Translations under genes and position numbers: made by a program
Notes under the pieces: model-generated
Databases searched by the model: none
What the model saw: the letters and a program-made list of their open reading frames with translations, nothing else
Told to the model about the DNA's origin: nothing
Assembly (NCBI GenBank): GCA_965153355.1
Contig: OZ231126.1
Span: forward strand, 42,160,001 to 42,224,000
Direction: 5' to 3'
DNA: 64,000 nt
Source: Flaccisagitta enflata
Lineage: Eukaryota
In this document: one piece after another, positions 20,072 through 64,000 of the stretch
Layout: every line of letters starts with the position of its first letter
Numbering within the stretch: the first letter of the stretch is position 1

Positions 20072-29336
<9,265 letters not shown>

Positions 29337-35389: not shown

Positions 35390-36058
35390 TTTTTGGGCAG
35401 CGGCCCCGAAGGGGACGAAGTCCTGTAGATACAGGGGGACTTTCGTTCGTCCGTCCGTTCATTCGTTCGTTCGTCCGTCCCCCCCCCTCAGGCCCCTCAG
35501 GCCTCAAATCTGGCCTCTCAGGCCTCAAATCTTGCCTCTCAGGCCTCAAATCTCGCCTCTCAGGCCCCAAATCTCGCTCTCAGGCCTCAAATTCAACCTC
35601 TCAGGCTTCAAATCTGGCCTCTCAAGCCTCAAATTAGGCCTCTCAGACCTCAAATCCAAATTCTAGGGCCTCAAACCTGGCCTCTCAGGCCTCTCAGGCC
35701 TCAAATCAGCAATCTAAGCCTCAATTTATTGCTCTCAGGCTTCAAATCAGTCCTGTGATTTCAAGCTTTGATCCAGCTCTCCCAAGCCTCAAGTCAGCCC
35801 TCTCAAGCTTCCAATTGGCATTCTTAGGCCTTATATCAACCTTCTTAGACCTCAGTTTAGGCTCTTGAAGGCCTTTGGTCAGCCCTCTATAGCATCTCAT
35901 CCCCTTTCTCAGGCAGGACGAACAAAAGTCCCCCTGTGTTCTACAGGACTTCGTCCCCTTCGAGACCGCTACCCTGCTTCCCCCTCCCTCCAATTCACAA
36001 TCACTCAAAGCAGGGCAACGGGTATGGCTGACCACATATTGCCCTTGGGCGACCTGTT
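35390..36058 (+). mobile_element. Element with ~45-bp subterminal inverted repeats and a central 21-bp tandem array
   Basis: TTTTTGGGCAGCGGCCCCGAAGGGGACGAAGTCCTGTAG ... CTACAGGACTTCGTCCCCTTCG, 3' hairpin GCCCTTGGGC plus GACCTGTT, and CTCAGGCCTCAAATCTGGCCT-like units. Relatives at 36333-37093(-), ~44110-44587(-) and 45337-~45750(+). Confidence 0.8.
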
Positions 36059-36091
36059 AATGACTGATATATACAGAATAAACCGTTATAA

Positions 36092-37208
36092 GAGGTGTGG
36101 AGGGACCAAAATTGTAGTAACCCCCCCTACAGCCCATATCATTGCATATATTTCTATACTCTGGGTAGTGGTTTCTATTTTAAATGAATACAAATTTTTT
36201 CATTAAGGCGATCTTTGAAATTCTATCAAGATCCTTTTCAAAATCTCTAATTTTCCTATTTTTGGAGAGTTTCAAAAATGCTTCAATTTTAGCATAAGAA
36301 TGTCAATTGTGGCGATTCTGAGATGAGTCTTAAAACAGGTTGCCCAAGGGCAATATGTGGTCAGCGATACCCGTTGCCCTGCTTTGCATGATTGTGAATT
36401 GTAGTGAGAGGAAGCAGGGCAGCGGCCCCGAAGGGGCCGATGTCCTGTAGAACACAGGGGAGTTTCGTTTGTTTGTTTGTCGTTTGTCCATCTCCCCCCC
36501 CCCAAGGCCCTCACAGTGCTGAAATCTGCCCCCTCAGGCCTGAAATCTGCCTTTTCAGATTCAAACTCTGAGAGGGCAGATTTCAGGCCTGAGAGGGCAG
36601 ATTTCAGGCCTGAGAGGGCAGATTTCAGGCCTGAGAGGGCAGATTTCAGGCCTGAGTGGACAGATTTCAGGCCTGAGAGGGTAGATCTTAGGCCTGAGAG
36701 GGTAGATTTCAGGCCTGAGAGGATAGATTTCAGACCTGAGAAGGCAGATCCAAGGTCTCAGAGGGCAGATTTCAGGCCTGAAAGGTCAGATTTCACGCCT
36801 GAGAGGGCAGATTTCAGGCCTGAGAGGACAGATTTCAGGTCTGAGAGGGTAGATTTTAGGCCAGAGAGGGTAGATTTCAGGCCTGAGAGAGTAGATTTCA
36901 GACCTGTGAAGGCAGATTCAAGGCCTGAGAGGGCAGATTCCAGGCCTGAAAGGTCAGATTTCAGGCCTGAAAGGTCAGATTTCAGGCCTGAGAGGGCAGA
37001 TTTCAGGCCAGGCCGAGGATGGGGACGGATAAACAAACGAAAGTCCCCTGTGTTCTACAGGACATCGTCCCCTTCGGGGCCGCTGCCCAAAAAGCCTGGA
37101 TGAAAAAATTTGTTTTTACCTAAAGTATAAGCCACTGCCCAAAAAAAAGAAAAAAAAAAACCTTAGTGTGGGCTGTAGGGGGGGTGCTATAACTTCCCTC
37201 CACACCTC
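36092..37208. mobile_element. MITE with GAG...CTC termini (Sola3-like), carrying a nested element
   Basis: GAGGTGTGGAGGGA...CCCCCCTACAGCCCA and TGGGCTGTAGGGGGG...TCCCTCCACACCTC; flanks are ATAA and TTAA (imperfect TSD). Confidence 0.55.
36568..37010. repeat. 21-bp minisatellite (CTGAGAGGGCAGATTTCAGGC)n
   Basis: About 20 tandem units; explains the ADFRPER pseudo-ORF. Confidence 0.95.
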
Positions 37209-39066: not shown

Positions 39067-40075
39067 AAAGAAAAAAAAAAGGAAAAGAAAAAAAAAGAAA
39101 GATAAAAAATAAACGGGCAAAATATTTCATTTTCCAGATTGATTTTATTATTTTGTGTAATCAACGTAAAAACCCGCAGTGAGCAAATAATCCACGCTGA
39201 CTTGAATCGCTCATGGCTCTGTTCTCAACTTCCCATAACTGAGTGGTCAATCATTGCGTTAATTGGTCGGTCCGTTGTTCTGTCAGTCCACAACATTATT
39301 TAAATGAGAACATCTCTTTTTCATTGCCGTCCCTGCCCAACTGTGCGCAAGCGTGTATGTATTCCACCTTTTTAATCGCTGGTTAGGCGGTGCTATAGGA
39401 GGCCGTGTCTGAAGGAAGGTCCAAAGGTAGGGAACGCAAAATTTTGGATGACGCGAAATCGGCTGAAATGCAGATTTCTGAGTATTACGGCCCCTGCTCC
39501 GCCCACCCACATACTGCCCATGCCCACCCGAATTACTGCCCTTTCCCACCCGCATTACTGCCCCTGCCCACCCTCCAGCGACTACTTATTGGCCGTGTAT
39601 CCGGCCTTGTTTTTCAAGCAAGAGGCTACCGTCTGTTGGTGGTTTTCTAAATAATGCAATTTTTAAAGTTCTCTCTTACCTTTAGCTTTACATCTTAAAT
39701 CTTGTAGTTCTTTACTTACATCCTAAATACTGATATTTTACATTTTGCTTATTATACAGTACTGTATTGGTTATATCTTGGCCTTGAACTTCATCCCTTG
39801 TGTTTGACTAATAAAGTAGGGGAGAAACGAAGATGGGGAAAGGAGTTGTGGAATGTGGAAGCCATTTACAAGAGACTCAAGACTCAAGAATTAGTAAAGA
39901 ATGGATCTAAGGAAAGTAGGAGGTGATATATCATTTATATACTATCCGTCTTAAGCATCATGTCTGATATGAAGTATTTTGACAATCTGACTGCGGACAT
40001 ACGCAAGCAAGACGGATTTTTTTTTTGTTTTAACATAACGTGTCAATTATGTCCTTTTGTATTATGGAAAAGTTA

Positions 40076-40675
40076 CAGTACGATGGGAGCAATGACGACC
40101 TAGACTGGAGGATAGATTTTAGGTACCCTAATTTCATTAGTATCATGAAATATTTGAGATCTAGGCTAATTGAAGGTTGCTCTATTGAGTGAATGCATTT
40201 GCGTCTCTTAAACCTCAACTTGTGACTTGACCTCATCAAGACTTCATTTTTCAAGGTTCTAACCATTTTCATTAAATCAGGCGAAAAATTTGATATAATT
40301 TTGAAAAAAAAATCAGCTCAATTAGACCATTTTTACAGGTTTTACGGCTATGTTTAATAAACAAATGTTATGCAAATTAACTTTTGAGCAAAACTTAAAA
40401 TGGCAATAAAACCTGTAAAAATAAACCGATTGAGCTGATTTATTTTTCAAAACTGTATAAAATTTTCCACATAATCTGTTGAGATAGGTTAGAACTTTGA
40501 GAAATGAAGTCTTGATGAGGTCAAGTCACAAGTTGAAGTTTGAGAGACGCAAATATTTTCACTCAATAAAGCAACCTTTAATTACTCTAGATCTCAAATA
40601 TTTTATGATACAAACAAAATTAAGGTACCTAAAATCTATCCTCCAGTCTAGGTCGTCATTGCTCCCATCGTACTG
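40076..40675. mobile_element. Palindromic TA-flanked MITE (same TIR family as 9513-9950)
   Basis: TA|CAGTACGATGGGAGCAATGACGACCTAGACTGGAGG ... CCTCCAGTCTAGGTCGTCATTGCTCCCATCGTACTG|TA; inverted similarity extends over most of its length. Confidence 0.92.
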
Positions 40676-43169
40676 TAGACAAGAAATACTCGAAAGTATT
40701 GACACTATATTTGAATGCCATCTCTAAGATATAAATGAATAATTGCTTACAAAACAGGTGTATTTTACTTCCAATGGATCTCAGATTTTGGACCGCCTAT
40801 TGGGACTCGAGTCAGTATCTTATGTAGTCTGGATTGGTATAAAATAAAGATCTTCATCAAATTTGCATAAAAGCGGAAATCGTTTCCGCGTTTCTTCCGC
40901 ATAAAGATCGCTAAGATGGGAACAACGCAGGAACGAGGCTATGAATAAATGAATAAATGAATGAATTAATGAATGAATGAATGAATGAATGAATGAATGA
41001 ATGAATGAATGAATGAATGAATGAATGAATGAATGAATGAATGAATGAATGAATGAATCGATGAATGAATCAAAAAATGAGTGGACGAATTAATGAACGT
41101 TTGTCATTTATGTCAATTTGTCATTTTCTTTTTTAGTCGCGTGCACGCGACTCTACAACCTGGTCGGTCGGTCGGTCACGCTTAACTTTTTTGGCTGTTT
41201 TGGGCGGATTTGGGGTTACTGCTCCTGCCCAACTGCTTGGTTGGTCAATTTCATCACTGCCCATGCCCACCCGCACGCGACTTGGGTAGCCGTGTATCCG
41301 GCCTTTTTTTTTTTTTTTTTTTTTTGCGGACACGCAACTCAATAAGAGGTTTTGTCCGTCCGTCCGTCTGTCCATTGCATTGGTCCGGGGTCGTTGAGTT
41401 AAAAAGATTGAGTCAACGATACTGTGAACCCGTGTCACTTGCTTTTCAATTTCTACCCATGAAGTAATTTGCAGCATAAACGTATACACATATGCATACA
41501 CTAACATGCTGTGCATCAATGCATGCATCATGGAATGTGAAGGCACGCGACTGAGCGCTGTTGGGCGTGTTTTTTATGTTGATTCTTTTTTTATAATACG
41601 AATCCGAGGTCATATCGTAAAGTTTAATGGCCTCTAAAATGTAAAGATGAAGTCAAACAACCGCGTGCGCGCGAAAAAATATCATAACTTTTTAGTTGCG
41701 GACACTCCATTCACTTTTACATCTTTTTTCCTTCTATGTATATCATTTTTCCCCATCATTTCAGGGAAATAAACCGTTGTCATTCAAACGTTGATGTAGA
41801 TGTTATTCTTTATCATCATTATGAGTTGTTTCACATGAACCTCCTGTATTTAGTATACATTTCTTGACGTGGGTGCAATAATGAAGGGTCACAAGGAATT
41901 ATTATAGTGTTATGGCTTTGGTTATTAATTGCGATTATTTTTCTTTCTTGATGAGTGGTAGTGGACAAGATTATTGTTCGTTTAAATAATATCATCACAT
42001 GAAAATATTATAATCCAATAGAATTTTTGTATGAGCGGCGACGATTCATTCATTCATTCATTCATTCATTCATTCATTCATTCATTCATTCATTCATTCA
42101 TGCATTGTAATGATAGAAAAACATAAGGACTCACCAAACTATGAACAAGGCCGGATACACGGCCAATAAGTAGTTGCTTGTGGGTGGGCAGTGGCAGTAA
42201 TGACTAATGTGGGAGGGCAGGGGCAATATTCTGGTGGGCGGGGGCTTTAACGTGCCTGGGCAGGGGCCGTAATGCTCAAAAATCATTATTTTAGTCGATT
42301 TCGCGTCATCCAAAATTTCGCGTTACGGATCTTCGGACGTTCCTTCCTTCCTTCCTTCCTTCCTTCCTTCCTGCGGACACGCCCGCTTGTAGAGTCGCTT
42401 AGCAAGCGACTAAAAATGAATTCAGAGCTACTCTGTCAGAGAGTGATTTTGTAGTGGCAAGATAAAACAAAACCTAGACAAAACTATGATCGCTCTTATG
42501 AACCAACCAACGCAATACAGACACACAGACAGATAGATAGATAGACTGATTTGTAAACGCAAAAAAAAAAAACAAGCCCGACCAGGCAACGATGCGTCCT
42601 GAAGGTGTCTCTGCGTGTATTGACTTTGGCGCTAGACTTGGACGGACAGACAGATGAAGACGTAGTATCAAATGAGGCTCTCAAAATATCCTAACAACTT
42701 GATACAAGACATCATCACGGCTGAAAAGTGCCTAAGACACGGAGGAAGATAAAAGTGAATTAGCCAGTCACATAATTCTTGCATTTATTTTTGCATCGAA
42801 AACTGTTATTTTTGACCAACAACGTGTTCTACTGGCATAATAGATAGTAAATTGTCACTTTCCAGGCAGATGATACTCTGGTGGGCCCATTTGAGTCCAA
42901 ACTAAAGTGATATCTTCAAAAGAAAAATGAGAAAACCTCAAAAAACAGCTGTAATCATCAAGACATCATGATTTCTTTGATCTGTTACGGATACATTTTT
43001 TGTTTTCAGCTCCTGTTCTTAAATGAAATCCACTCAGGCTATCATCAGGTTTGTGTGAAAAAAATTGGCACTCTTGTTTTTAAAACTTAGATGCCGAAAT
43101 AAAAATAAATGTAAAAATAGCCAAAATGTAATGAAAAATGGAAAATTTTTGAAAAAAATGGTTCAGCCC

Positions 43170-43905: not shown

Positions 43906-46726
43906 TGATTTAAGCCTTAAAGAGCATATTTTTAGGCTCTGAGGGGCCAGTAAGCTCAATTAAATCCAAGGTCTTGCAAAAAAGTAGTCATCGCCATTTG
44001 AGAAAAGGTGCCTGGGCCCCAGGGGTCCTGGGGGACCCCTCATATGAGCAACAAGGATCTCACATGTTCTGTTGCCTTGCATGAGGTGTTAAGGTGATAA
44101 GGTGGGTTGAGTAGGGCAGCACGCCTAAAGGGCTGATATCCTGTAGGACACAGTGGTGAATTTTCATATGTCCAGTTAGGGGGGCTGAGAGGGCCTGATC
44201 ATGCCTGAAAGGGCAAATTTTAGGCCTGAGAGGAAAGATTCAAGGCCTGAGAGGGAAACAGGCCTTGAATCTGAGAAGGCAGATTTCAGGCCTGAGAGGG
44301 CAGATTCAAGGCCTGAGAGGACCGGTTTCAGGTCTGAAAGAGCAAATTTCAGGCCTGAGAGGAAAGATTCAAGGCCTGAGAGGGCAGATTCAAGGCCTGA
44401 GAGGGCAGATTTCAGGCCTGAGAAGGCAGATTTTAGGTCTGAGAAGGCAGATTTTAGGCCTGAGAGGGACTAGGGGGGGACGAACAAACAAACAAACGGA
44501 CAAACGGACGAACGAACGAATGAACGAATGAACGAAAGTCCCCTGTGTTCCACAGGAATTTGTCCCCTTTGGGGCCGCTGCCCAAAAGGGCTAATCTTGA
44601 GCCCTAAGGGATGATTTTAGGCTTATCAGGACTGATTTTACGCCTGTAAAGATTGATTTAAGACCAGTGAAGGGGTGATTTCAACCAGGTGAAAGCTGAT
44701 TTTAGGTCTGTAAGGGTTGATGAAGAGCAGGGAGGGCTGATTTCAGCTAGGTGAGAATTGATGCACACCTAAAAGAGCTGAATTTAAGACAATGAGGGAT
44801 TATTTAGGGCTAAAGAGAGCTGATTTAAGGCCTAAGAAGACTGATTTTAGGCCTAAGAGGATTGATTTAGAGTCTAAATGGAATGATTTTAGGCCTTGGA
44901 GGGTTGATTCCAGGTCTTCAGCTGGATTGAGGCCACAGGCTTTTTGAGGGTTGTCGCGGACAGACAGACAAATAGATGTATAAAGCTTCACCCCTGTGTT
45001 ATATTTGAGGCTGCTGCCCAAACAACATAGTTGAAGTATTAAGCAGACAAAGAGATAAGCAATGAGTCATCCAAGGATCACACAATGTCAGTGGTATCTA
45101 ATACCCTGCTTGGAGTGATCAGCTGAAAAAGTAGCATGAGAATAGGGCAGCAGCGTAAAAGGGCCGATGTCTTTTAGGACACTGGAGTGACCCCGCGTCA
45201 CTTGTTTTTTTCATAACTGGCTGTGTCTGTTGGTCGGTTGGTTGGTTGGTCAGTCTGTCGGTCGGGTAACGCATTCGTTTGACGATCCACACGTCGCACC
45301 TTATTGGCCTACTTGGCCTCGTTCATTCATGAATGCTTTTTGGGCAGCGGCCCCGAAGGGGACGATGTCCTGTAGAACACAGGGGGACTTTTGTCAGTTT
45401 GTTTGTTCGTTTGTTCGTTCTCCGTTCATCCCCCCAGGCCCTCTCAGACCTGAAATCTGCCCTCTCAGCCCTAAAATTTACCCTCTTAGGCCTGAAAACT
45501 GCCCTCTCAGGCTTTGAATCTGCCCTCTCAGGCTTTGAATCTGCCCTCTCAGGCCTGAAATCTGCCCTCTCAGACCTGAAATCTGTCCTCTCATGCCTGA
45601 AATCTGTCCTCACAGGCCTGAAATCTGTCCTCTCAGGCCTAATATCTGCCCTCGCAGACCTGAAATCTGTCCTCTTTGACCTGAGATCTGTCCTCACAGG
45701 CCTGAAATCTGTCCTCTCAGGCCTGTAATCTGCCCTCGCAGATTCAAGGTTGGAGGGATGCATCACTTTTCCTTCCCACCCACATAACAGCCCCCTACCA
45801 CCCACCAAACTGTCCCTGCCCAACAGAATAACTGCTTCTGCCCATTCGAAGCGACTCCGTATCAGTCATGTTTCCGTTCTTGTTTTTGTCCTGTGCAGAT
45901 GTCCAACGTGTGCATATGTTGGTCGGTTGGTCGGTCGGTTGCTTGGCCTTCTATTTGGCTCAGAATTAAGGATTGCTATAGACGGGAAAAGCAGATAAAA
46001 AAACAGTTATCATTCATGACTAAATTGAATGAATGAATGAATGAATGAATGAATATGCAAACAAAGTATAGATGATCGAAGTTATAGACAATTGCTCGAT
46101 GTGTAATCGCAAGCTAAAATCCTAATTATGACATTCAAATAATGACATGATGAGAAAATGAGCAAAAAATGGCTTTTTATTGCTTTTATTAAATTATAAT
46201 AGGGCAATTCAATGTAAAACTTGATGAAAAATAGATATTTTATATAATTATACTTAGTGGCAGTATATTGAAGTATTTTTTAATTGAATATACTTGAAAA
46301 ATATGGAAAAATCTCATCATATTATGAAAATTATTATCAAATATTAAATTATTAATATTTAACTAACTAAAATAGATTTTGCATTAATTGTTTTTGTTTT
46401 GTAACTGGAAAGTGATATACTATGCTACCATGAAGAAAAAAAATGCTTTATGACACTTAAATTTTTTAACCTTGGTGACTACCAAATTTCACGCAATCTT
46501 GCACCGTGTCCTAAAACTGCGATTTTCAAGGAGGCGTAACGGACGGACGGACGGACGGACGGACGGACGGACGGACGGACGGACGGACAGACCCTCTTAT
46601 AGAGATGCGAGGACGCATTTAAAAAAACTTTTTTGTGAAAAAAAATTAGGACAATCAGATAATCGAAAATCGTCGAAAATGAAAAATAAACGAAAACCTC
46701 GGACATGAAACATTGATGATGCATAT

Positions 46727-50481: not shown

Positions 50482-50740
50482 CAGTCACTTTAAAAAATCG
50501 CCCTCTCCTCTCTCTCTACAGGGTGTATCAAGTCTTTTGCTCTTTAAGGAATCGACATATCTTTTCTCCTAGAAATGCTAATCCAATTCTGAAAAAAGGT
50601 CTGAATAGATCTTGAAGTGCAGTTTTTTTAAGTCACCAATTTTTTATATCTGCGCATTTAAATATGCCCACTATGTAAGTTTGAAGAAAACAACCATATT
50701 CAGCCTGCATCTTTAATCTGGATAACTTTGGCATAAAAAA

Positions 50741-51074
50741 ATTCTTGAGTCTTATATTGAAAATTGGACGGCTAAAGAAAGGAAACAAGGTAACATATTG
50801 GTAAAAAAAGAAGATTTAGATTTATGGAAAAATGAGATACTAAGAGTAGTAGACAACAAAATAAGTCGAGGTAAAACTTTATTTAAAAGGACCTGGTCGA
50901 AAAGATTAGATGGTAGTCTAGCCACAGAATTGGCAAGATTGAAACAGGATTTTGTCATTACTGTGGCAGATAAAGCTCAAAATAACATTTTATTCACTTG
51001 TAAATATTTTTATATAAAAAACTTAAAGGAAGAATTGACACGACCAGGTCAATTAACCTATCAATTGTCAAATA
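50741..51074 (+). CDS. Penelope-like (Naiad-type) retroelement RT ORF, 5' part; 5'-truncated and interrupted by a DNA transposon
   Basis: Open frame ILESYIENWTAKERKQ...LKQDFVITVADKAQNNILFTCKYFY...TYQLSN. The ADK(A)xNN motif is typical of the region just N-terminal of PLE RT cores. The frame runs into the transposon TIR at 51075. Confidence 0.85.
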
Positions 51075-53201
51075 CACTCAAAAAAAACTTTTTTTTTCTA
51101 ATAATTATAGCAAAAAATTATATCAATCGCGGACGAAATTATACCACATAACAATTATATCGATATTATATCGATATTATATCGAAATTATAATTTTTTT
51201 ATCAAAATTATATCGAAATTATATCGAAATTATATCGAAATTATATCGCAGTGGTGCCATATGGTCAATATAACAGTTTTATTCAACCAATATAACTGTT
51301 TTAAGACAACTTACAACAATTATATTGATAATTATAATAATTATATTTTGGATTATCTAATAATTATACCATGAGCTATAATAGTTAGATCCCAAAATAT
51401 AATAATTATATTTGGTCCGGCGAGCTTAAAAAAAAAACCCAGGCTGGGCACCTGCTTCGAGTAAAATACTCGAAGCAGGTGCCCAGCCTGGGTTTTTTTT
51501 TAAGATCGCTGGACAAAATATAATTTTATCAAAATACTCGAAACAGTGAATTGAAAAAGTCGCATAACAATAAATGGCGCCAATGACAAATTTGTGTACA
51601 ACGTGGTGCATTGTATGAACATTAACACTTTGAATGACGAGAACGAAGCCGTTTCGAAACACTTTCCACCACTGGCACATCAGCTAACTAAACTTATCAA
51701 AACAGACAGATTCTAGATAACGAAGCCATGGTAATCGCATGAAATGTTGAAGCGGAAAAGAAATGGAATTAAACAAAGGGGAGTTTTATTTTTATACAAA
51801 CAAAACAATTGTTACAAGAAGTTACATTTCTTTGTGGGACAAATGAATGTATTTGGCAGGCGTTTTATTGCGGAATGAAATAAACCATAATATAACTGTT
51901 TTATTGCAGTTTTACGCGTGAAAAACTGAGCATTTTGCGACTCTCTCGGGCCATATACTTAAACAAGGCCAACACCTATAAGTCGCGTGCAAGACTTACA
52001 GACTTAGAATGACTTAGAATGACTTTGAATGACTTAGAATGACTTAAAATGACCAAAAACAACTTAAAATGACTAAAAAACCTAATAACCAAAAATGACT
52101 TAAAATGACTTAGAATAACTTGAAGTGACTTAGAATGACTCAAAATGACTTAGAATGACTCAAAATGACTTATAATAACTATTAATGACTTTAAATGACT
52201 TAAAATAACTTAAGAAATGATGTTATATTGTAAAAAAGTAAAGTGTGACGGACCGACGGACCGACGGACGGATGGACCGACGGACGGACCGACGGACGGA
52301 CCGACAAAGCGGGTTGCAGAGTCGCGTAGCACGCGACTAAAAATTGGCAAACGTTCCGGCCGGATCTAACAATTATAATCAGGTGTACGTTGGTGTTGTG
52401 CGGCGGTAAAAAAAGCTCGTAAGATCTAACTATTATAATTAGCGTTACTATGGTTTTATTAAGGCCTAAGAAAACGTTCGCCGGGGATCTAACAAATATA
52501 CTCGACCATTGCCAGTCGGGCTCGCCCCTCACAATTTGACAGAGCCCGAGACAAAAACCTTGAGCCCGGTAAAAATGTTATGCCAAATTTTACAATCATA
52601 TCAGCCTAGATTTGTAAAAGTAGCCAATGACTAAATGGTATAATGATAAAATAATCACTACAAAGATGATTCAGTTTGTGAAAGAAATCAAAAAAATAAA
52701 AAACGACTGAAAACTTGATGATTTTTCAAATATTTAACTCAATCAGCTTGAGCACTTTGAATCCACCCCATTAATGACAGAGAGCCAGCCGGGCTCAGAG
52801 CTTGCAAAACATGAGAGCCCGAGAGCAAAATAGAGAGCACCGGGCTCGCGGGCTCGCTCTAAAATCAGGCCTGATTATACGCCTATTCTACCGCGCACGC
52901 CTTTCCTCGCCTTCCTCAGCGTGCTGTCCATTTTCGTTCTCAGCGTCGATCGAGATTCGTTTTTGCGTCGTCCTTTTGTCCAATTTCGTATTTCCGGCAC
53001 TTGCGCTGAGCTTCCTCGTATCTCGACTGTGGAGAGGATTCTCCGTCGATTCCGATCGTCTTTTTGCGCAAAACGCGTTTTTTGCGCATAACTCGTTTTC
53101 CGCTCGGCGCTCCTTTTTCTCGTCTAGATTTGGTGTCTCCTCTCATCCTGGTCGTTGAGTGGTGGTCGCTGGATATTTTTGCGTTAACAAAGTAGTTCAC
53201 A

Positions 53202-53238
<37 letters not shown>

Positions 53239-53575
53239 AGCTAAATGAGCTAAAATACTCAAAAACGCCCTCACAGATGAAAACCCGTTTCTCTCGAATA
53301 TGTCAAAAAGTCGAAGACTGACTTCGACTTTTTTCCCGATAATTAGCGTTACTATGGATTTATTAAGGCCTAAGAAAAATTTCGCCGGGGATCTAACAAA
53401 TATAATTGGCTCGACCATTGTTTTTCGCGATTGTTTATACACGCTTTTCATTTTATAAGAACATGGATTTCTGAAGTGAGCCTCAGCGTTCTTATTTTTA
53501 GCCCCATTTTGAGGCTCAACTGTTATTAACATTGGTCTCCTTCAAGGCCTATTCTGACCCTAATTCTGCCAAATA

Positions 53576-53911
53576 CCGTATTTTCTCTAAAAAGCGCCCC
53601 GGGCGCTTTTGAAATTGAAATATGACTTTACTTTTTAACCCTCCAATTAGCGCCCCCTTTATATTGTACGTGAACTGTTATTGAGTCTTTTCTTTTTCAT
53701 GAAAGGCTAGCAAATTGCTAAATTTGAGTCAAAATGAATATATTCATTGCATATCTGTCTGAAAATCTTTGAAAATGGTTCATTGTGTTGTATTATTTTA
53801 TCATGTTACTAAATATTTCTGTCCAAATCTCTTCTGTAAAGTGTAATATCAAGAAAAAAAGAGGAGGGGGGCGCTTTTTGGAGGGGGGGGCGCTTTATGG
53901 AGAAGATACGG
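53576..53911. mobile_element. Tc1/mariner-like MITE nested in the large transposon
   Basis: TA|CCGTATTTTCTCTAAAAAGCGCCCC ... GGGGCGCTTTATGGAGAAGATACGG|TA. Confidence 0.8.
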
Positions 53912-54680
53912 TAGCCCAAATCCAAGCAATATGGCCCAAATCTAAGCGAAATGGCCCAATTCCAAGCATAATCGCCCTAATCCAAGCAAAATGGCCCAAA
54001 TCGTTTTAGGAGCTAAAGCTCTGCAAATAAAAGCACTATTTTGCTAAAACCACAACGATACACAGACAGACTAAGACTGAATAACAAGAATCGCACAAAA
54101 CAATGCTCGAGCCGATTATATTTGTTAGATCCTAAGCGAACGTTTTCTTTATCGCATGTAGGATCTAACAATTATACTACCCTTTGCCTATGTAAACTGC
54201 CTAAGTCCTAGTAACATATTACTACATAAATAGGCTATTATCTCATAAACTAGGCTTCAGATTTAATTTGAATTTTGCAGGGGCTGTTTAATTAATATCC
54301 CTTACTTGTATACCAACTAAAAAAAAATTCACATAACTTTACTACCCTTTGCCTATGTAAATCGCCTAAGTCCTGATAACATATTACTACAAAAATAATA
54401 GGCAAAGGGTAGTAAAAGTTTATGAATTTTTTTGAAAATTGGTACACAAGCTCCTATTGACCTATAAACAACACCAGCAAAGTTTCATAAAATTCTGAAG
54501 TCTGGATCCAAAGTTATGAGAAGGTTTTAAACAACAAACAAACAGACTACACGATCACTGCTATCACATAGTCACCGACGAAAACTGTTTGTCGGGGACA
54601 AAAAATAAAATAATAATGGCAGAATGACATACAGTTGAACCTCGCTCTAACGGATTTCAGGGCAGATGCAGAAATAAAGA

Positions 54681-55145
54681 AGTTGGATTTTCGGTTTTCG
54701 AAACGCCCCCACGTTTTTTAACGAGTAAGAAGAAGACGATATCCGATGGAGCTGAAATTTTTACCGTATGATGTCCCTGCCCAGGGGCAGCTCTGTGCAA
54801 AATTTCGTCGAAATCGGCCCAGTGGTTCAGGATTTATAAGCGGCCGAAGTTGACATGCGTTCGGCGAAAAAGTTGGATTTTCGGTTTTCGAAACGCCCCC
54901 ACGTTTTTTAACGAGTAAGAAGAAGACGATCTCCGATGGGGCTGAAATTTTTACCGGATGTTGAGCCTGCCCAGGGCCAGCTCTGTGCAAAATTTCGTCG
55001 AAATCGGCCCAGTGGTTCAGGATTTATAAGCGGCCGAAGTTGACATGCGTTTGGCGAAAGAGTTGGATTTTCGTTTTTCAAAACGCCCCCACGTTTTTTA
55101 ACGAGTAAGAAGAAGACGATCTCCGATGGGGCTGAAATTTTTACC
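54681..55145 (+). repeat. ~190-bp tandem repeat, about 2.4 copies
   Basis: GTTGGATTTTCG...AAACGCCCCCACGTTTTTTAACGAGTAAGAAGAAGACGAT recurs at ~54682, ~54872 and ~55062. Confidence 0.9.
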
Positions 55146-57505
55146 AATTTGTAGCGAGGTATAAAAGCATTGGTATGACTCCAAAGTCCAATGTTATTAA
55201 AACACAATGTTATAAAACACACAAGTCTTTTACCCTCGATTAACTTCCATAGACAGGGTCAGAGGCAGGGGCCTCAAGTCCATGGGTACCCCTGGGGGTA
55301 CTTATGATGCACAGGGGCTAGTAGCCCACGCAGAATAAAACACAAAGTCAAATCAAGGCCTTAGCCTTATATTCAATCAATAATAAAACGAGAGAGCAAC
55401 AGCTATAGGCTTGTAGCCTAAAAATTACCGAACCATGTGGTTGTGAGATGCGGCTGCGTTGACAGGAGGCTGCAGAGTCTCGTCGAGGGTGTTGACGATG
55501 GCGTGAAGTAAGAAGGGTCTCGTGACGTCGAGGAAGTGTTGTTTGAGTTTGTTGTTGGCGTCTCGAGTTCGTGGCCTTCTTGTTGATGAAGCAGCAGCGT
55601 CCGGAAGCAGCAGCAGCTCGTCGTCGAGGATGATGCTTCAGCAGCGTGGACGAGGTGATGCAGAGAGTTGATGAGGACGTCGAGGGTTCGGTAAAGGTGT
55701 CCACAAGACGAATCTGGTGTCTCTATAGTCGGTTGTTTAGGCGTGGTGGACGTCCGAAATTGACGACGCGAATAGCGATTTTCGAGCGATCCGAAAGGGC
55801 ACTTCCGGTTGGCGTAGAGTCACGAAATTTTCAGGGGTGGTAGACGGACCCTTGGAGTGTCTTCAGTTCAAATTTGGCGATCGTGGGACGACTCCTTCGA
55901 GTTCTCGATCAAATTGAAAATATGGGCGGTTTTCGAAGTCAAAAACGAGGATTTTTCCGCCGAGGGAATTTTCCACCTTCCCGTAGTTGCAATTCGATGA
56001 GCTTTGGAATGAAGCTAGTAGAGGTGCTGTAGTAGTTGGGGTTCAAATCTCGTGACGATCGGTTCGCAGGTTGAGCCGCAACAGCTCGTCGAAAACGAAG
56101 TTCGAATGGGCGCTGTTCGAAGGTTGAAAAAGAGTGGATTTCTTCTTTTCCTTCGCGAAGTGGGCGAGTTGTGGACGCTGAAGCGGCTCGTGGAGAGGCT
56201 GGAGAGGCTCGTGGGACGTCGTGGATCCACTGGAGATGCTCGTGGTCCCGTGTATTGGCGGCTCGACTCGATCACATGCGGAAGTAAGACGGGAAGGAAA
56301 ACAGCATGAGTAAGAGACAAATATGTTTGAATGTCTGTCGAGTTGGTCAAGGAGGTAAATGAGTGTTAAATATATTGTTATTTCACTCTGTAACCGGCTC
56401 ACCCAATGGAGTGGGTGCGTTTGCTGGCACCGGAATCCTCCTTAACGCCAAATCCCACAGGCAGTTGGATTCCAGCTTCGCCTGAAGCAGCTCCCGAGGC
56501 CAGCCAAGCTTCAGGACTCCTCTTCTTAGAAATGGACGAAGATAAGCGAAATTGATGTTGAAGTTTGAAGGCGAAACGGATGCGATTTCGACGAGCGACT
56601 GCGGCCGAATGCGTGAAGATATCTTGACAGATTTTGGTGTGGAGATGCCTGAGGACCTCCTCTACGATATCCAACCGTCCGTTCACGATTCATTCATTGT
56701 TTCTGGGGTCAAATTCGCGATCTCGTCGAGGGCCATCGGCGGTCCGAAGGCGAAGAATGGCGAAGGCGAAGCGGATGCGTTTTTGACGAGGTGCTGCGCC
56801 CGAACCGTTTGAAGCGGGGTGCTGATTTTTGGTACAAAGTTGCCTCTGTACCTCTTCTACCACGTCCCACCGTCCGGAGGTCTCAGCTCGACGAATTCGA
56901 TGCGAGAATGAAAGGCCCGTGGGGGGGCCTACGGAGCTCCGGAGGCGAATTTTCGATTGGAAAGAGTGGACGAAAGTATTGTTGTTGACGGCTCGAGGGC
57001 GTCCTCGTGGGCGCTGTCGTCGTCTCCACGCGATGTCAGAAGGTTGGAGAAAGTGACTAGTACTTCTTTTTGTCTTTTAGTCGGTAAAAATTTTTTTACC
57101 GGTAGCTCTGTGTGAAATTTCATCGATGTGGGCCAAGTAGTTTAGGATTTGTGGCCGACCGAAGTTGACTTAAGTTCGGCGAAGAGGATGCGGATTGAGC
57201 GACTCGACGAGGTGCTTGGGGGTCGAGGGTGTTGTTGCTGCTTGGTCTGTCGGTAGAGGGGACCTTGCTGCTGCTTTACCTCGATTCCCAGCTCGATTGG
57301 CGAAGAAATGAGTTGTTGAGCCGCAGTCAAAGTCGGTGGATGCGGAGGCTCGTCGACAGCGATGTTTGAGGGCTTCCACGAGCTGTTGGACGAGAGTAAT
57401 CGTTGCAGTCGCGGTTGGAGCACGTAGTGGTCGACCTGATGTACGTCTGTAGCGATTTGGTTGACGATTGGACTCGAACTCCGCGCTGTAGAGTCGTTTG
57501 AATGT

Positions 57506-58020
57506 GGCGGCGGCGGCGGTTCGTCGAGGACGCGATTAGGATGCGGTTGGCGGGAGACTGGAAGTTCGAGGCGCCGTTAATCGAGTTAGTTCATGTACCC
57601 CTAAGTGTCCTCCGCCTTTTCCCCGCATTTGCCGATCCTGAGTGTCGTGGTGCCGGAGCTAGACGTTGTTGTTGCTGTGGGCGGCGGCGGTTTGTCGGAG
57701 GCGCAGTTGGGATGCGGTTGGCGGGCAGCTGGAGGTTCGGAGGGCCGTGAATCGAGTTGGTTCATGTACCCCTAAGTGTCCTCCACCTTTTCACCGCATT
57801 TGACGATCCTGAGTGCCGTGGTGCCGAAGCTAGACGTTGTTGTTGCTGTGGGCGGCGGCGGTTCGTCGAGGACGGGATGCGGATGCGTTTGACGACGGAC
57901 TGGAGGCTCGTGGCGTCGCAGATCGAAGTGGTTCATGTACCCACAGTTGTGCTTCACCTTTTTGCCGGATTTGACGATCGTGGGTGTTGTACAACCGAAG
58001 TTATATGTTGTTGTCGCCGA
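57506..58020. repeat. GC-rich ~171-bp tandem repeat, 3 copies
   Basis: GGCGGCGGCGGTT(C/T)GTCG...GTTCATGTACCC...TGTTGTTG units at ~57506, ~57680 and ~57851. Confidence 0.85.
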
Positions 58021-58051
58021 TGGTGTTTGCCTCTGGCGGCTTCTCACAATG

Positions 58052-58785
58052 CACTATGTTCTGAGAGCGACTCAAAATTGGACAAAAATCATCTGATAGA
58101 TTTCTTATGTTTTAATGTTGTAAAATTACATATTATATATAAAAAATAATATTTTTTTTATTTTTTGCCTTTTTTGTTATTTTTTTTTAATAGAAAATCA
58201 CAAGAATAACCAAAATGACTAAGATACCTGATATGATTAAAATGACTAAAATGATTAAAATGATTAAATTAACTAAAATGACCAAAATGACTTAGATGAC
58301 CAAAGTGACTAAAATGACCCAAATCACAAAAAATCACAAAAAAACACAAAAATGACAAAAATGACAAAAATTAAAAAAAAATGACAAAAATGACAAAAAA
58401 TGATAAAAAATGACAAAAATGACAAAAATGACAAAAAATGACAAAAATGACAAAAATGACAAAAATGACAAAAATGAAAATAAATGACAAAAAATGACAA
58501 AAAATGATAAAAATGACAAAAATGACAAAAATGACGAAAATGACGAAAATGACAAAAATGACAAAAAATGAAAATAAATGACAAAAAATGACAAAAATGA
58601 CAAAAATGACAAAAAATGACAAAAAATGACAAAAAATGACAAAAAATGACAAAAAAATGACAAAAATGACTAAAAAGGAAATAAATAATATTTTTTCGAA
58701 ATAATATATAAATTTACAGTATTATAACATAATAAATCCATCAGATAAATTTTGTCCAATTTTGAGTCACTCTCAGAACAAAGTG
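58052..58785. mobile_element. Transib/RAG-like MITE with RSS-like TIRs, nested in the large transposon
   Basis: ~46-bp TIRs starting CACTATG and CACTTTG. 5-bp TSD CAATG at 58047-58051 and 58786-58790. The interior is largely an (AAAATGAC)n-like minisatellite. Confidence 0.88.
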
Positions 58786-60530
58786 CAATGAGGCCAAGTC
58801 AGAGGTTCCTTTACACTCGATATTTTTGGGCCATTGTTGCTTGACAACAGTGTTTTTTGGAACACGTATGATGCTCCGCTCGCCTTCGGAATTCGTACGG
58901 AAGCTTCTCCGGTGGCGGCGGCGGCGGCGGTGTGAAAATGTCCGCTCGCCGGCCGCGCCGTTTGATGATAAACGCGGATCTCTATAGGCTGTCCAGCCGG
59001 GCCGTTCGTCGTTCGAATATCGGTGTAAAATGCGAGAAATCCGGGTCTCTAGCAAGCCGCAAAACAGTCACGATATGGATGTTACGCGCGCGCGATTCGG
59101 CACTTGATAAGTAGGGGTAAAATCGGTAATAAGGATGTAAAGAAAGCCAACAAGACAAAAATGCGGATACTCCCTCAAAACCTTATCAAAATGAGCGCAA
59201 AAATGAGTACAAAAATGGGCATGAAAATGAGCATGAAAATGGATATGAAAATGAGCACGAAAATGACAAATAACAATGATATCTAGATGATAATTCATGA
59301 GCGCCTCCAATATTCATCTCCGGCGAGGTCATTCAAAAGACCATTCATAAGTCCGTTCACGAGGCCATTCACGAAGCTATTCACGAGGCCATTCACGAAG
59401 CTATTCACGAGGCCATTCACTAGGCCATTCATCAGTCAGCTCGTAAGGCCATTCATATAGGATGAGTCATTCGTGAGTTATTCATCTCCTCCGCCATTCA
59501 TTCATCACCTCCTTCATTCATTCTCCTCGTCCTTCATTCATTTCCCGTTCAGTCATATAAATTCATTCTCCTCCGTCATTCACGGCGTCGACCGTCCAGC
59601 ATCTTCGCGTTTGCGCTTCTCCAACGATTTTGGGGCACGAAAGCCGAGTCCGTCCAAAGTTAGCTTGGTGAAGGGTGCGCAGCATCCCCACCAGGCGTGA
59701 ACAAATTTTACACAATCGTCGAATTTTTGCTGCAGTACGCTGGGCGTGCTGCGCTGCCGCTCGAAAAACGTTTACGAATCTGGAAAAGGGGGGAAAAAAA
59801 GAATTAGTCCAATACAAAAACGGGCAGCATCCCCAACAGGCGCGAACAAATAATTGTAAAAATTTTACGCAATCGTCGATTTTTTGCTGCGGTCCGCAGC
59901 AGTACGCTGGGCGTGCTGCGCTGCCGCTGTTGCCTAATCTGCGGCGAGAGGAATTTCCGTCATTGAACAAAAGAGCAACCTTCTGGGTGTTCTTGGAAAA
60001 ATGAAATGGTCGATAGGTGTCGTATTTCGGCGTTGTCTTTTTTGTACGAAAAAGAACAATTACATGACTGTCTATTTTGTTAAAGTGGCTGTACGTTATA
60101 ATCGTTATAGTTTAGAAAACTCTGTCGCCAAAAATGGATTGCATTTTTACTAAAGTTTTTCCACAATCTAATTATAATACTTCAGATGTCTCTAACGCGG
60201 GAAAAAATGAGCATTTTGCGCAACTCTTTCGGACCATATACTTATTATATTGCGAAAACACTTTGATTTTTGGTGAGACTTAATGTTATGGCACTTTATG
60301 AAAAATCGCGAAGTAAAAGTGATATAAAAAATATATTAATGAATCCAGATTTTTTAGGCTAGCTTCAATATGATATAATTAAAATATTCCACTGTTTTCC
60401 GGCAAAATGGGTGGGATGAAATATAATTTCGATATAATGACTGTATAATTGTTATGTCATATAATTTCGTCCGCGATTGATATAATTTTTTGCTATAATT
60501 ATTAGAAAAAAAAAGTTTTTTTTGAGTGTA

Positions 60531-61717
60531 AGGGACAAAATGATATTAATAAAGATATAATTAATTTTTCAAAATGCAAGGGTATTAAAGTTCCAGAGAA
60601 TATGGGAGACCTGCCTCTGATATATTGGATACCCAAAATGCATAAGAATCCAATAGGCAGTAGATTTATTGCAGGATCCAAATTTTGTTCAATCAAGATG
60701 CTCTCAAAATACTTTTCTAAGGCTTTGAAATTAATTTTACATCATATGAAGCTATATAATAAAACAGTTTTTGAGAGGACATGTTTGAATTGTTTTTGGA
60801 TTTTGGATAACTCTTTAGAATTTTTGGAAAAAATAAAATCTGAAAGGATAAACCATATGGAAACATATGATTTTTCCACTCTATATACGGCCTTGCCTCA
60901 TGGAGAAATAAAACGTAAATTTTCAGCTATTTTTCAGAAAGTTTTTAATAGGGAGGCAAGGCCATACATAAGTGTCAATATGAATGAGGCTTATTTTAGT
61001 CCTACAAAGGCTAAAAATAAATTTTCATTCAGATCGGCAGACATGCAGGAAATTTTAGAATTTATATTGGATAATATTTATGTAAAATTTGGTGCAAATG
61101 TATATAAGCAAGTGATAGGTATTCCTATTGGTCTTGATTCTGGACAGGATATTGCTAATTTACTTTTATATAGTTATGAATCAGACTATGTGGGTGAAAT
61201 TTCTAAGGTAGATCTTCCGACAGCAAGGAAATTTAAGCTTAATGGAAGATATATTGATGATCTTTTTGTAGCTAATTTTCCAACCTTTAGGGATCATATC
61301 TATGAAATATACCCTCAAGACCTAGAAATTAAATTAGAATCTAATAATACCCAGGAAGTAACATACTTAGACTTAAAAATTAAATCGGAAAATTCTACTC
61401 TAAATTTTTCTGTCTATGATAAACGTGATGATTTCTCTTTTGATATTGTCAATTTTCCCTACATAGACAGCTGTATACCAAAGAAATCAGCCTTGGGTGT
61501 TTATTTAAGTCAATTGATAAGATATGCTAAATTGTCATCTAAATATGAAGATTTTTTACAAAGAAGCAGATCTTTGGTTGATAAACTAAAGACCCAAGGC
61601 TACAAAGAACATGATTTAAAACGACTAACTTCAAGATTTTTTAGGGAAAAACATGATATTCTAATAAAATATAATATTCCTAATACAGATGATTTTTTGA
61701 AAAATATATTTGAATAA
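60531..61717 (+). CDS. Penelope-like (Naiad-type) reverse transcriptase, 3' part (RT core and thumb, no C-terminal endonuclease)
   Basis: RT motifs IYWIPKMHKNP-SRFI, TYDFSTLYT, YKQVIGIPIG, YIDD, YLDL, VYDKRDDF. Open from 60533 (GQNDINK...) and in frame with the 50798 fragment once 51075-60530 is removed. Stop at 61715-61717 with no GIY-YIG domain following in the same ORF. Confidence 0.95.
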
Positions 61718-63042
61718 AATTTTGGTGGGAGGCTATGAGAATCTTTTGACCCACTTGTCGCAGACCATAGCCAAACACCATCTTAGTTTTAATATAGTCC
61801 CTAAATTTTGGTGAAAGGCTGTGTTTCTCTTGACCAACTTGTCGTAGTTACATAGCTGGACACCTTTTGGGAAATTTTAACACTTTTCTAAAATAATATT
61901 CATATTTTAATATAAGTGTTTCTATTTTGACCTTGTGTCGCAGATTCACTTTATCTTCTTATATAAAAAAAATATTTTTAACATATGTGTTTCTATTTTG
62001 ACCTTGTGTCACAGATTCACTTTTTCCTGAAAACAATTTTTAACTGGTGTCTAAAATGACTAAAGAAAAAAAATAATTTTTCCTATAATAAAGGATTTTG
62101 AAATTGGTTGGGAGGAAGCCATGATTTTCAATCCCATGGCCGATTCCTGATGATTTTCTTGATCTCTTCAAACCAAACAGTGGAGGGCACTTTGTTGAAG
62201 TGCGACCCGCCTGTACTTGGGTCTTGGAGGTGTATATATATGTATGTGGATACTTTTGTATGTATATATGTATATATATATGGGTCGAAACCCTTTAAGG
62301 TACAGGACTCCAACTGATGACCAGAAGCTGTATGGTTTGATAGTTTTATAAAAAAAATTTTTGGACATGTACTAAAACTTTTTTACCCTTCATGGTGACC
62401 TATCATCCCATGATATATCTTCTTTGAAGATGAAGGCCTTTTTCCCTTTAATCACTAAAAATCATAACCATAACCATATATAGTATAAATTCTCCTAAAT
62501 CCCACCCCCCTAATTAGGATAAAGGGGCTCAACTAGGGATATGGACACCTTGGTTCCCTTTTTCAATTAGGTCAACTTTAACCAAAATTGGGCTGAGTTG
62601 ATGGTCCCGATCAATGCCAGAAGACAGCTCTAACAACACCCTTTCCCTAAAATATTCATTATTTCTAAATAAAATATTTAGATATTCATTTTTAAGATAG
62701 GAAAATATGACACATTTAGTAAAAAGTATATGCCTAAGGAATTTTGTTAGTGTTTCAAAAGACCACAGATTAGGTATGTATGTGTATGTAATGGAAGCTT
62801 ACACTATATAAATGTCCATATCTTTTCCAAATTTTGTTCAATTTCTGTTTCCTTTTGATTAATTGTATGAGTTTTATATAGGATAAATTGTTGCACAAGC
62901 CACATAGTTTAGTGCCTTGGTATAGAATGTCCGGCGGTCCCATTTGGTGACTCTCGATTCTTGCCTTTAGGGCATGGTTTCTTTCAACAGTATTATAACT
63001 GTAATACAAAATATTGTAACAAATCTTTATTCCTCAACAATT

Positions 63043-64000
63043 ATGGCGAACGAAACTTTAATAAAAAAATGCAATGGGCGATCCTGTGGTACGTGTCCAT
63101 TTTTAGAAGAAAAAAATTGTTTTCATTCAAATTCTACAGGACAAAGACATAAACCTTTAACAGCAGATCAGGATTTTCTAACTTGTAAATCAGAAAATGT
63201 TATTTACATGATTTATTGTCAGGTTTGCAATATTCAATATATAGGTGAAACTAAACAAAAGTTAATAAGAAGATTTAGTAATCATAAGACTAACATAAAT
63301 GGTAAAAAGTCAGGCCAAGTTGTTCATAAACATTTTGAAGAAAGTGGCCATGGCATTTCCAATCTTAGAGTAATTCCCATAGAAAAAATAGATAAGAATA
63401 ATGTTAATTTGCGAGGCTTAAATGAAATCCAGAAGGATAAGGCAATAACTAAATACAGGCTAGAACGTGAGAAAATTTGGATTTCAAAATTGCAGACTGC
63501 TTATCCCTTTGGATTAAATATTTCTGTCAAAGGGGTCGGTGACTTTAATGTTTCCCAGGGACTGTACCAAAATTTTGAAGGACGAAAAAGGAGAAAAAAT
63601 AAAAAACATTCTAGAAGAAAACCAAAAAGGTTAAGAAATAACAATGATATATCTATGGATTTTTTAAAAAGAAAACATACTGAGCTTAGAGATAAAGATA
63701 ATTATATTCATTTCTTTAAAACCTTTTTATATGGTCTACCTAGACAACAGTTACAAACATTACAAAATAATGCAAGACAGGATAATATGATAGATGATAG
63801 ATTAAGAGATATGATAAATATGATTTCCCACCAGAAATTATTTAAACCAGTCCAAACTAATATAAAGAAGGATAGAGATTTTTATCATATTCAATTTAGA
63901 GACAAAGGACTGGATCATATCAATATAAGCCAAATACTTAGAAATAAAAGTGTCACAGATAAGATTCCAATTTATTTTACTGATAAGGAGCCTCCTATAA
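63043..64000 (+). CDS. N-terminal GIY-YIG endonuclease ORF of a second Naiad-type PLE copy (runs off the window end)
   Basis: Hand-translated with no stop from ATG 63043 to 64000: MANETLIKKCNGRSCGTCPF...TCKSENVIYMIYCQVCNIQYIGETKQKLIRRFSNHK...HKHF...RLEREKIWISKLQTAYPFGLN...FRDKGLDHINISQILRNK...IPIYF. Contains VIY/YIG motifs, CxxC plus His residues, and the R, E and GLN motifs. Confidence 0.93.
   Translation, partial: MANETLIKKCNGRSCGTCPFLEEKNCFHSNSTGQRHKPLTADQDFLTCKSENVIYMIYCQVCNIQYIGETKQKLIRRFSNHKTNINGKKSGQVVHKHFEESGHGISNLRVIPIEKIDKNNVNLRGLNEIQKDKAITKYRLEREKIWISKLQTAYPFGLNISVKGVGDFNVSQGLYQNFEGRKRRKNKKHSRRKPKRLRNNNDISMDFLKRKHTELRDKDNYIHFFKTFLYGLPRQQLQTLQNNARQDNMIDDRLRDMINMISHQKLFKPVQTNIKKDRDFYHIQFRDKGLDHINISQILRNKSVTDKIPIYFTDKEPPI

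What the first reader, a model, noticed from the sequence alone, without database searches (positions are those of the whole stretch)
50741..61717. One reverse transcriptase gene split 9.45 kb apart by a precisely bounded DNA transposon
Seen: ORFs 50798-51151 and 60602-61717 are two parts of one gene. Deleting 51075-60530 (element plus one TA) joins ...TAT CAA TTG TCA AAT A|AG GGA CAA AAT GAT... (YQLSN-K-GQNDINK...ENMGDLPLIYWIPKMHK) with no stop or frameshift, giving 487 codons from 50798. Inference: the intact halves and mismatch-free 69-bp TIRs imply that both the retroelement and the inserted transposon were recently active.
Basis: partly seen in the sequence, partly recalled or inferred. 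Interest (0 to 1): 0.75.

Follow-up and report, generated by a model that had tools for sequence, protein, structure and literature searches.

The report
Transposon nested in a truncated retroelement
A young cut-and-paste transposon landed inside an already truncated copy of a known retroelement, which is ordinary nesting, but the transposon depends on an unusually large, multi-gene partner element elsewhere in the genome that may deserve a look of its own.

Summary
The split is real. 51075-60528 has a perfect 69-bp TIR and a TA duplication, and 19 of 19 other family loci examined are contiguous at the site. It is not a whole gene, though. The halves are a 5'-truncated upstream tandem copy of a Naiad Penelope-like element, covering residues ~411-915 of a 915-aa ORF and lacking the GIY-YIG endonuclease. 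The "start" at 50798 is an internal TTG codon. The insert is not TA-specific: its 2-bp duplications vary (20 of 21 match, 9 are TA). It has no transposase and belongs to a ~10.0-10.4 kb non-autonomous family with at least 12 other near-identical copies. It shares only its ends with a 25.5-28.4 kb family encoding a RAG1/Transib-fold DDE transposase of CMC/EnSpm-like type, the likely mobiliser. The locus is a nest: MITE > Naiad tandem > CMC-like element > LTR-retrotransposon relic. The unexpected part lies outside the window. Three related 20-28 kb families share, in the same order, small RING genes, other spliced ORFs and a decayed inverted transposase copy.

The parts
50519..50741 (.). Left part of a ~1.0 kb TA-flanked MITE that hosts the Naiad insertion; the right part lies beyond the window (G000:C1:42227391-42228130)
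   Evidence: Arms 95% inverted over 130 bp. Uninterrupted relative in L035, 995 bp, 87-89% identical. About 25-30 bp of target is missing at the Naiad site.
50742..51074 (+). 5'-truncated Naiad copy, left half (residues ~411-520 of 915, includes the DKA motif)
   Evidence: 98-99% identity to family loci, alignment starting at 50732; residue positions
51073..51074 (.). Left copy of the 2-bp target-site duplication (TA)
   Evidence: empty site in 19 of 19 other loci
51075..60528 (.). Non-autonomous CMC/EnSpm-like DNA transposon, 9454 bp; member of a ~10.0-10.4 kb family
   Evidence: no transposase trace
51075..51143 (+). Left TIR, 69 bp, beginning CACTC, followed by 11-bp subterminal repeats to 51248
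51075..51904 (.). Left end shared with the 25.5-28.4 kb autonomous family (96-97%)
53204..53236 (.). (CT)n tract at which this copy lacks ~0.7 kb that the other copies have
55143..57084 (.). Relic of a Ty3/Gypsy-type LTR retrotransposon carried inside the transposon (LTR pieces and one internal flank, 78-82% identical to an element at G000:C9:70.128-70.139 Mb)
   Evidence: that element's pol has RVT_1, RT_RNaseH and rve
59770..60528 (.). Right end shared with the autonomous family (96-97%); right TIR at 60460-60528
60529..60530 (.). Right copy of the TA duplication
60531..61717 (+). Naiad right half: RT core (residues 521-915) to the stop codon
61718..62905 (+). Naiad non-coding region to the end of the first tandem unit
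   Evidence: 60529-62905 is 99.7% identical to the downstream unit
62906..64000 (+). Start of the second Naiad unit: ATG at 63043, CX4CxxC finger, GIY-YIG endonuclease and KR block. It continues beyond the window and is interrupted by a 406-bp TA MITE at G000:C1:42224125
   Evidence: PF01541 E 6.8e-6

Best explanation
Ordinary nested transposition in steps. (1) A young Naiad Penelope-like retroelement inserted into a ~1 kb MITE as a partial tandem, a 5'-truncated copy followed by a full unit. The structure is shown; target-primed reverse transcription is inferred from the family. (2) A non-autonomous CMC/EnSpm-like DNA transposon of a ~10 kb family was cut and pasted into the truncated copy, duplicating 2 bp. 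The insertion is shown. (3) The transposase most likely came in trans from a 25.5-28.4 kb family with the same ends. The shared ends and open transposase ORFs are shown; the mobilisation itself is inferred. (4) The 10 kb element probably arose from that family by losing its interior and refilling it with other genomic repeats, for instance by aborted gap repair, and was then amplified as a unit (inferred). The split copy has no function: it lacked its endonuclease beforehand, and the second unit is broken by another MITE.
For: Empty site in 19 of 19 other loci. 2-bp duplication matched in 20 of 21 testable copies with variable sequence (TA 9, CA 4, TT 2, TG 2, AG, CT, AT). 12 other full-length matches at 99-100% to the interior 55250-57050; 7 of 12 fetched copies collinear throughout. 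No transposase hit in the window element or 12 other copies by tblastn, nor by hmmsearch --max in the window element and 6 copies, while the control B1 scored 1197 bits. 5 of 5 long copies share both ends; transposase ORF of 926-945 codons open in 4 of 5. 13 copies of that gene at 96% or more. Invariant D157/D246/E510 with CxxC and HxxxH motifs in 11 homologues. Model matches RAG1 (Foldseek E 3.6e-7; Z 14.1, rmsd 6.7, 437 aligned), P element (Z 10.4) and Transib (Z 10.0). An internal motif occurs 7 times in the window element, 15 times in B1 and never in window 1-50700. Naiad motifs.
Against: No locus-specific empty allele was seen (one search is family-level). The transposase has no Pfam transposase hit, and only 4 of 28 homologues have CMC-related Pfam hits, all below cut-off. 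One copy has mismatched flanks (CA/TA). The model is of moderate quality (pLDDT 69.6, pTM 0.53). No named reference transposases were available for a tree. No expression data. The origin of the filler is inferred only.
Confidence: 0.88

Rival explanations
1. The insert is a TA-specific Tc1/mariner-type element.
For: TA on both sides at this locus; TA is the commonest duplication, 9 of 20.
Against: 11 of 20 matched duplications are not TA. The partner transposase has a RAG1/Transib-like fold with a large helical insertion; the mariner-type Metnase domain ranks only 47th, Z 6.1.
Confidence: 0.02
2. The 9.45 kb element is itself autonomous, with a transposase in small exons.
For: Its size; copies are nearly identical throughout.
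Against: No Pfam family above its cut-off in 19 interior ORFs of 100 aa or more. No tblastn or profile hit. The interior is tandem arrays, high-copy repeats and an LTR relic.
Confidence: 0.04
3. The arrangement is an assembly chimera of two repeats.
For: The MITE 125 bp beyond the window has a 3' end that looks overwritten by Naiad sequence, so local consensus errors occur.
Against: Both junctions are base-exact with a 2-bp duplication, both element ends are complete, and the outer MITE arms enclose the whole nest.
Confidence: 0.04
4. The insert acts as an intron, so the RT is still made.
For: An AG after a T-run lies at 60525, near the right end.
Against: The skipped part has ends TA..TG, not GT..AG. 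The nearest GT (51067) joined to that AG shifts the frame (my arithmetic). The copy has no start codon and no endonuclease.
Confidence: 0.02

Closest known systems
Naiad clade of Penelope-like elements (Craig et al. 2021, PMC8557442)
   Same: N-terminal GIY-YIG, CX4CxxC finger, KR block, CxC, GxKY, DKA, long RT3-RT4 spacer, ~4.08 kb unit, 5'-truncated partial tandems, no hammerhead found.
   Different: No in-frame UGA in the intact 915-codon copies, so not a selenoprotein type. The target at this locus is a MITE, not a (TA)n tract.
EnSpm-like CMC elements with 2-bp duplications, e.g. CNEST of Cryptococcus and its clade of animal transposases (PMC12139950)
   Same: CAC- termini, 2-bp duplication, DDE transposase.
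   Different: CNEST is ~7.2 kb with 33-bp TIRs and TA duplications. Here the TIR is 69 bp, the duplication varies, the autonomous partners are 20-28 kb with many ORFs, and membership of that clade was not tested by a tree.
Enlarged En/Spm families of Chondrus crispus (16-20 kb, 4-5 ORFs; Kojima et al. 2013 as cited in PMC6431247; original not seen)
   Same: Large multi-ORF En/Spm-type elements are therefore known.
   Different: Red alga versus an animal-type genome. The elements here are larger and carry small RING genes and an inverted transposase relic; whether the algal ones do was not checked.
Pack-MULEs and other non-autonomous cargo-carrying TIR elements (PMC6431247)
   Same: Foreign sequence between TIRs, moved in trans.
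   Different: About 10 kb rather than mostly 1-2 kb; the cargo identified is other repeats, not host gene fragments.

Membership tests
Naiad PLE | GIY-YIG endonuclease N-terminal to RT in one ORF | tested here: met
   915-aa ORF with GIY-YIG at 53-68 and YIDD at 761; PF01541 above cut-off. The split copy itself lacks this part.
Naiad PLE | CX2-5CxxC finger and two Cys inside the GIY-YIG core | tested here: met
   CX4CxxC at 10; two Cys between VIY and YIG
Naiad PLE | KR block, CxC, GxKF/Y and DKA motifs | tested here: met
   CxC 353-356, GPKY 389, DKA 486; KR block seen
Naiad PLE | Insertion in fingers (RT3-RT4 about 20 aa longer) | tested here: met
   83 aa here versus 56-62 in the 7 measurable C-terminal-endonuclease PLEs among the 87 hits
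Naiad PLE | Unit 3.4-4.4 kb, partial tandems, 5' truncation | tested here: met
   Tandem spacing 4064-4078 bp; truncated plus full unit here
Naiad PLE | No canonical hammerhead ribozyme | tested here: met
   Rfam scan of L093 (two tandem units): 6 weak miRNA matches, no hammerhead. The paper's own descriptor was not run.
Naiad PLE | Phylogenetic placement with named Naiads | not tested
   No named reference sequences fetched
CMC (CACTA/Mirage/Chapaev), EnSpm-like | CAC- termini and a short duplication (2 bp in the CNEST type) | tested here: met
   CACTC ends; 20 of 21 testable copies with a matching 2-bp duplication
CMC, EnSpm-like | DDE transposase with CxxC and Hx3-4H motifs between the second D and the E (signature recalled from Yuan and Wessler 2011, from no call) | tested here: met
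   In the partner element only: D157, D246, C266/C269, H486/H490, E510 invariant in 11 sequences; RAG1/Transib fold
CMC, EnSpm-like | Pfam Transposase_21 / DUF4218 | tested here: inconclusive
   None in P0002; sub-threshold hits in 3 of 28 homologues, plus one Plavaka hit
CMC, EnSpm-like | Tree placement among named CMC transposases | not testable with these tools
   Homologues carried no names; no Repbase copy available
Tc1/mariner | Strict TA target duplication | tested here: not met
   11 of 20 matched duplications are not TA
Autonomous DNA transposon (window copy) | Encodes its own transposase | tested here: not met

The most novel reading that the evidence does not exclude
The insert is the non-autonomous satellite of an undescribed lineage of giant (20-28 kb) animal CMC transposons that behave like small gene-rich genomes. 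Three families with 53-62% transposase identity keep, in the same order, two or three small spliced RING genes, several unknown spliced genes, a transposase with a possible chromatin-reading BAH-like tail, and an inverted decayed transposase copy that is closer to each family's own gene. The boldest reading: the RING proteins and a protein binding the family-specific internal motif counter host silencing, the inverted copy makes hairpin RNA that limits the transposase, and the 10 kb satellite kept the motif to share that protection.
Probability: 0.3. Interest if true: 0.62.

Novelty: new member of a known kind. Interest (0 to 1): 0.3.

Why it matters
The split RT itself matters little. It is a clean, datable nested insertion showing that a Naiad family and a CMC-like family have both been moving recently in this genome. 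What could matter is the partner. Reviews treat large cargo as a limit on cut-and-paste transposition (PMC6431247), yet 25-28 kb copies here are about 98% identical to each other with intact ends. If their RING genes and inverted transposase copy are functional, they would be a testable animal case of a DNA transposon carrying its own regulatory genes.

Tried and rejected
Pfam on 19 interior ORFs of the insert: nothing above cut-off. Pfam on 25 ORFs of the long partner: nothing above cut-off; RING hits in 2 of 3 candidate ORFs are also below cut-off. PDB sequence search with the Naiad ORF: 0 hits. Atlas search with one accessory exon gave generic helical-repeat hits at low recognition (1764) and was not used. 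Atlas search with the transposase tail gave unnamed clusters only. A single-sequence model of that tail was too poor to search (pLDDT 39.8), so the BAH likeness rests on whole-model matches at Z 6.2-7.6, under the tool's caution level of 8. Laid contigs could not test a locus-specific empty allele, because the tables were cut and the flanks are repeats. Earlier scan findings: none by place, sequence or words. Paper searches for a description of such large RING-bearing elements found none (one grapevine paper, listing only; 0 papers). The library is partial and Repbase is not in it, so this does not show absence from print. A selenoprotein reading was rejected because intact copies have no in-frame stop.
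Full report
Observation. The coordinates are right. 51075-51143 and 60460-60528 form a 69 of 69 inverted repeat flanked by TA on both sides. Removing the element and one TA in a script leaves a single open frame, 487 codons from 50798. The window is G000:C1:42160001-42224000 of a 794 Mb assembly in 9 contigs. Of the 20 best loci for the right half, 19 are other copies, and all 19 have the left half joined directly to it. Contigs from 4 of 4 runs laid (2 studies) show the same joint; this is the family's form, not proof of an empty allele here.

The retroelement. Among five other loci fetched, three copies have an intact 915-codon ORF and one has 972 codons; the others are truncated, frameshifted or stopped. 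The order is CX4CxxC (10), GIY-YIG with two internal Cys (53-68), KR block, CxC (353), GPKY (389), DKA (486), RT3 (634), RT4 (717), YIDD (761). The RT3-RT4 spacer is 83 aa, against 56-62 in the seven measurable C-terminal-endonuclease PLEs among 87 homologues. Tandem units are about 4.07 kb apart, and Rfam finds no hammerhead in two units. These are the diagnostics of the Naiad clade in PMC8557442, of which I read the abstract, parts 1-2 of the text and searched passages, not the supplements. The split copy begins at residue ~411, so it is the 5'-truncated first member of a partial tandem, the arrangement that paper calls typical. 50798 is an internal TTG. The second unit starts at 62906 and is broken just beyond the window by a 406-bp TA-flanked MITE of a very abundant family. 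The whole tandem sits in a ~1 kb MITE, with about 25-30 bp of target lost. Neither unit at this locus can make the full protein.

The inserted element. Ten other loci match its first 326 bp exactly (40 of 140 candidates scored). Pairing left and right ends gives 10.0-10.4 kb for eight copies and other sizes from 8.5 kb to over 25 kb. Seven of 12 fetched copies are collinear with the window copy, two are rearranged and three diverge after 2-3.4 kb. The seven differ from it by 0-1 bases in 1801 and 1-5 in 926. The window copy is shorter because it lacks ~0.7 kb at a (CT)n tract. Of 23 copies tried, 21 had both ends; 20 show a matching 2-bp duplication, 9 of them TA, and one is mismatched. That excludes a TA-specific Tc1/mariner. 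It fits the EnSpm-like CMC type with CAC- ends and 2-bp duplication described for CNEST (PMC12139950, searched passages only). No transposase was found in it. Its interior holds tandem arrays, pieces with very high depth in laid contigs, and a 78-82% relic of a Ty3/Gypsy-type element.

The likely mobiliser. Five fetched long copies (about 25.5-28.4 kb, roughly 97-99% identical over their main blocks) share only 51075-51904, 59770-60528 and short internal repeats with the window element. Four of the five have an open 926-945 codon ORF, and 13 genomic copies of that gene are 96% or more identical. It has no Pfam transposase hit. Its 10 close homologues keep a D, D, E triad with CxxC and HxxxH motifs. 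The profile reaches 2810 proteins, of which 4 of 28 scanned show sub-threshold Transposase_21, DUF4218 or Plavaka hits. The model (pLDDT 69.6) matches RAG1, Transib and P-element transposases best. The CMC signature motifs are recalled from Yuan and Wessler 2011, not from a call. It works like a CMC cut-and-paste system; exact clade membership is untested.

What was unexpected. Two sister families (23 kb, full ends seen in one of two copies; 20.5 kb, two copies, one with an 8.5 kb nested insert) have CACT- ends and 2-bp duplications. All three share, in the same order, two or three small two-exon RING-like ORFs, an acidic ORF, further multi-exon ORFs on both sides of the transposase, and an inverted, decayed transposase copy just upstream of the gene. 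The third codon position is the most changed in 11 of 12 accessory exon pairs; the pairs were picked from BLAST hits and had no intron control. 18 of 22 loci matching one RING gene lie within 20 kb of a listed transposase match, and no separate host donor was seen at DNA level. Each inverted copy is closer to its own family's gene: 74-94% versus 67-79% in the first family and 84-89% versus 67-80% in the third. The second family is barely separated, 75% over 570 bp versus 74% over 259 bp. This points to repeated origin or concerted evolution. A 13-bp internal motif occurs 234 times in the genome against 31 for the reversed control, and most of the 100 places listed lie in these elements. The transposase tail resembles BAH domains at Z 6.2-7.6 only, and a separate model failed. 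None of these functions is shown. Large En/Spm elements with 4-5 ORFs are known from a red alga (PMC6431247, section 5 and one passage read). Six searches found no paper on this gene set, in a partial library without Repbase.

Mechanism and verdict. Shown: the nesting order, the duplication, the truncation, the family relations and the youth of both families. Inferred: reverse-transcription-based insertion of the tandem, mobilisation in trans by the long family, and origin of the 10 kb element by interior replacement. Against over-reading: no locus-specific empty allele was seen, and a neighbouring MITE end looks overwritten during assembly polishing, so base-perfect identity here should be read with some caution. 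The finding as posed is an ordinary nested insertion of new members of known kinds and alone would score about 0.15. The large multi-gene partner lifts it to 0.3.

Noticed in passing
L054-L056 (G000:C6:46171576-46197674) and four more copies; sister families in L107-L122: 20-28 kb CMC-like transposons with a conserved, ordered set of spliced accessory ORFs, including two or three small RING-like genes.
   Followed up: partly
L055:8951-9827 versus L055:6383-7680; the same arrangement in both sister families: A decayed inverted copy of the transposase gene just upstream of the gene, closer to each family's own gene; it could form hairpin RNA.
   Followed up: partly
window 52365-54180 (five sites), 53440-53452 region and 60200-60215; also L054-L056: A 13-bp internal motif, 7 times in the window element and 15 times in the long partner, absent from window 1-50700; a possible binding site for an element protein.
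   Followed up: partly
L041:2125-2532 (G000:C1:42224125 onward): A 406-bp TA MITE in the second Naiad unit, whose last ~110 bp read as a gapped copy of the upstream Naiad sequence; probably a polishing chimera, possibly at a heterozygous insertion.
   Followed up: partly
L034, L036, L037, L038, L039 with their right ends L071-L074, L083: Five copies carry the same variant of the A/T run in both TIRs, while two long copies carry a variant on the left only; this suggests the two TIRs are homogenised.
   Followed up: no
G000:C2:89449576-89470606 (L094, L095, L014): A head-to-tail array of at least six Naiad units at ~4.07 kb spacing, mixing intact and frameshifted ORFs.
   Followed up: partly
L096-L097 (G000:C9:70128836-70139098): A Ty3/Gypsy-type LTR retrotransposon with 1.33 kb LTRs at 97.5% identity and a 1431-codon pol ORF; described only.
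   Followed up: partly
window 21602-23488, 7638-8252, 40074-40677: Further inverted-repeat pairs (83-95% complementary), probably MITEs or foldbacks.
   Followed up: no
window 29934-31228, 35446-37093, 44216-45796: 30-bp and 21-bp minisatellite arrays, some in inverted orientation to each other.
   Followed up: no
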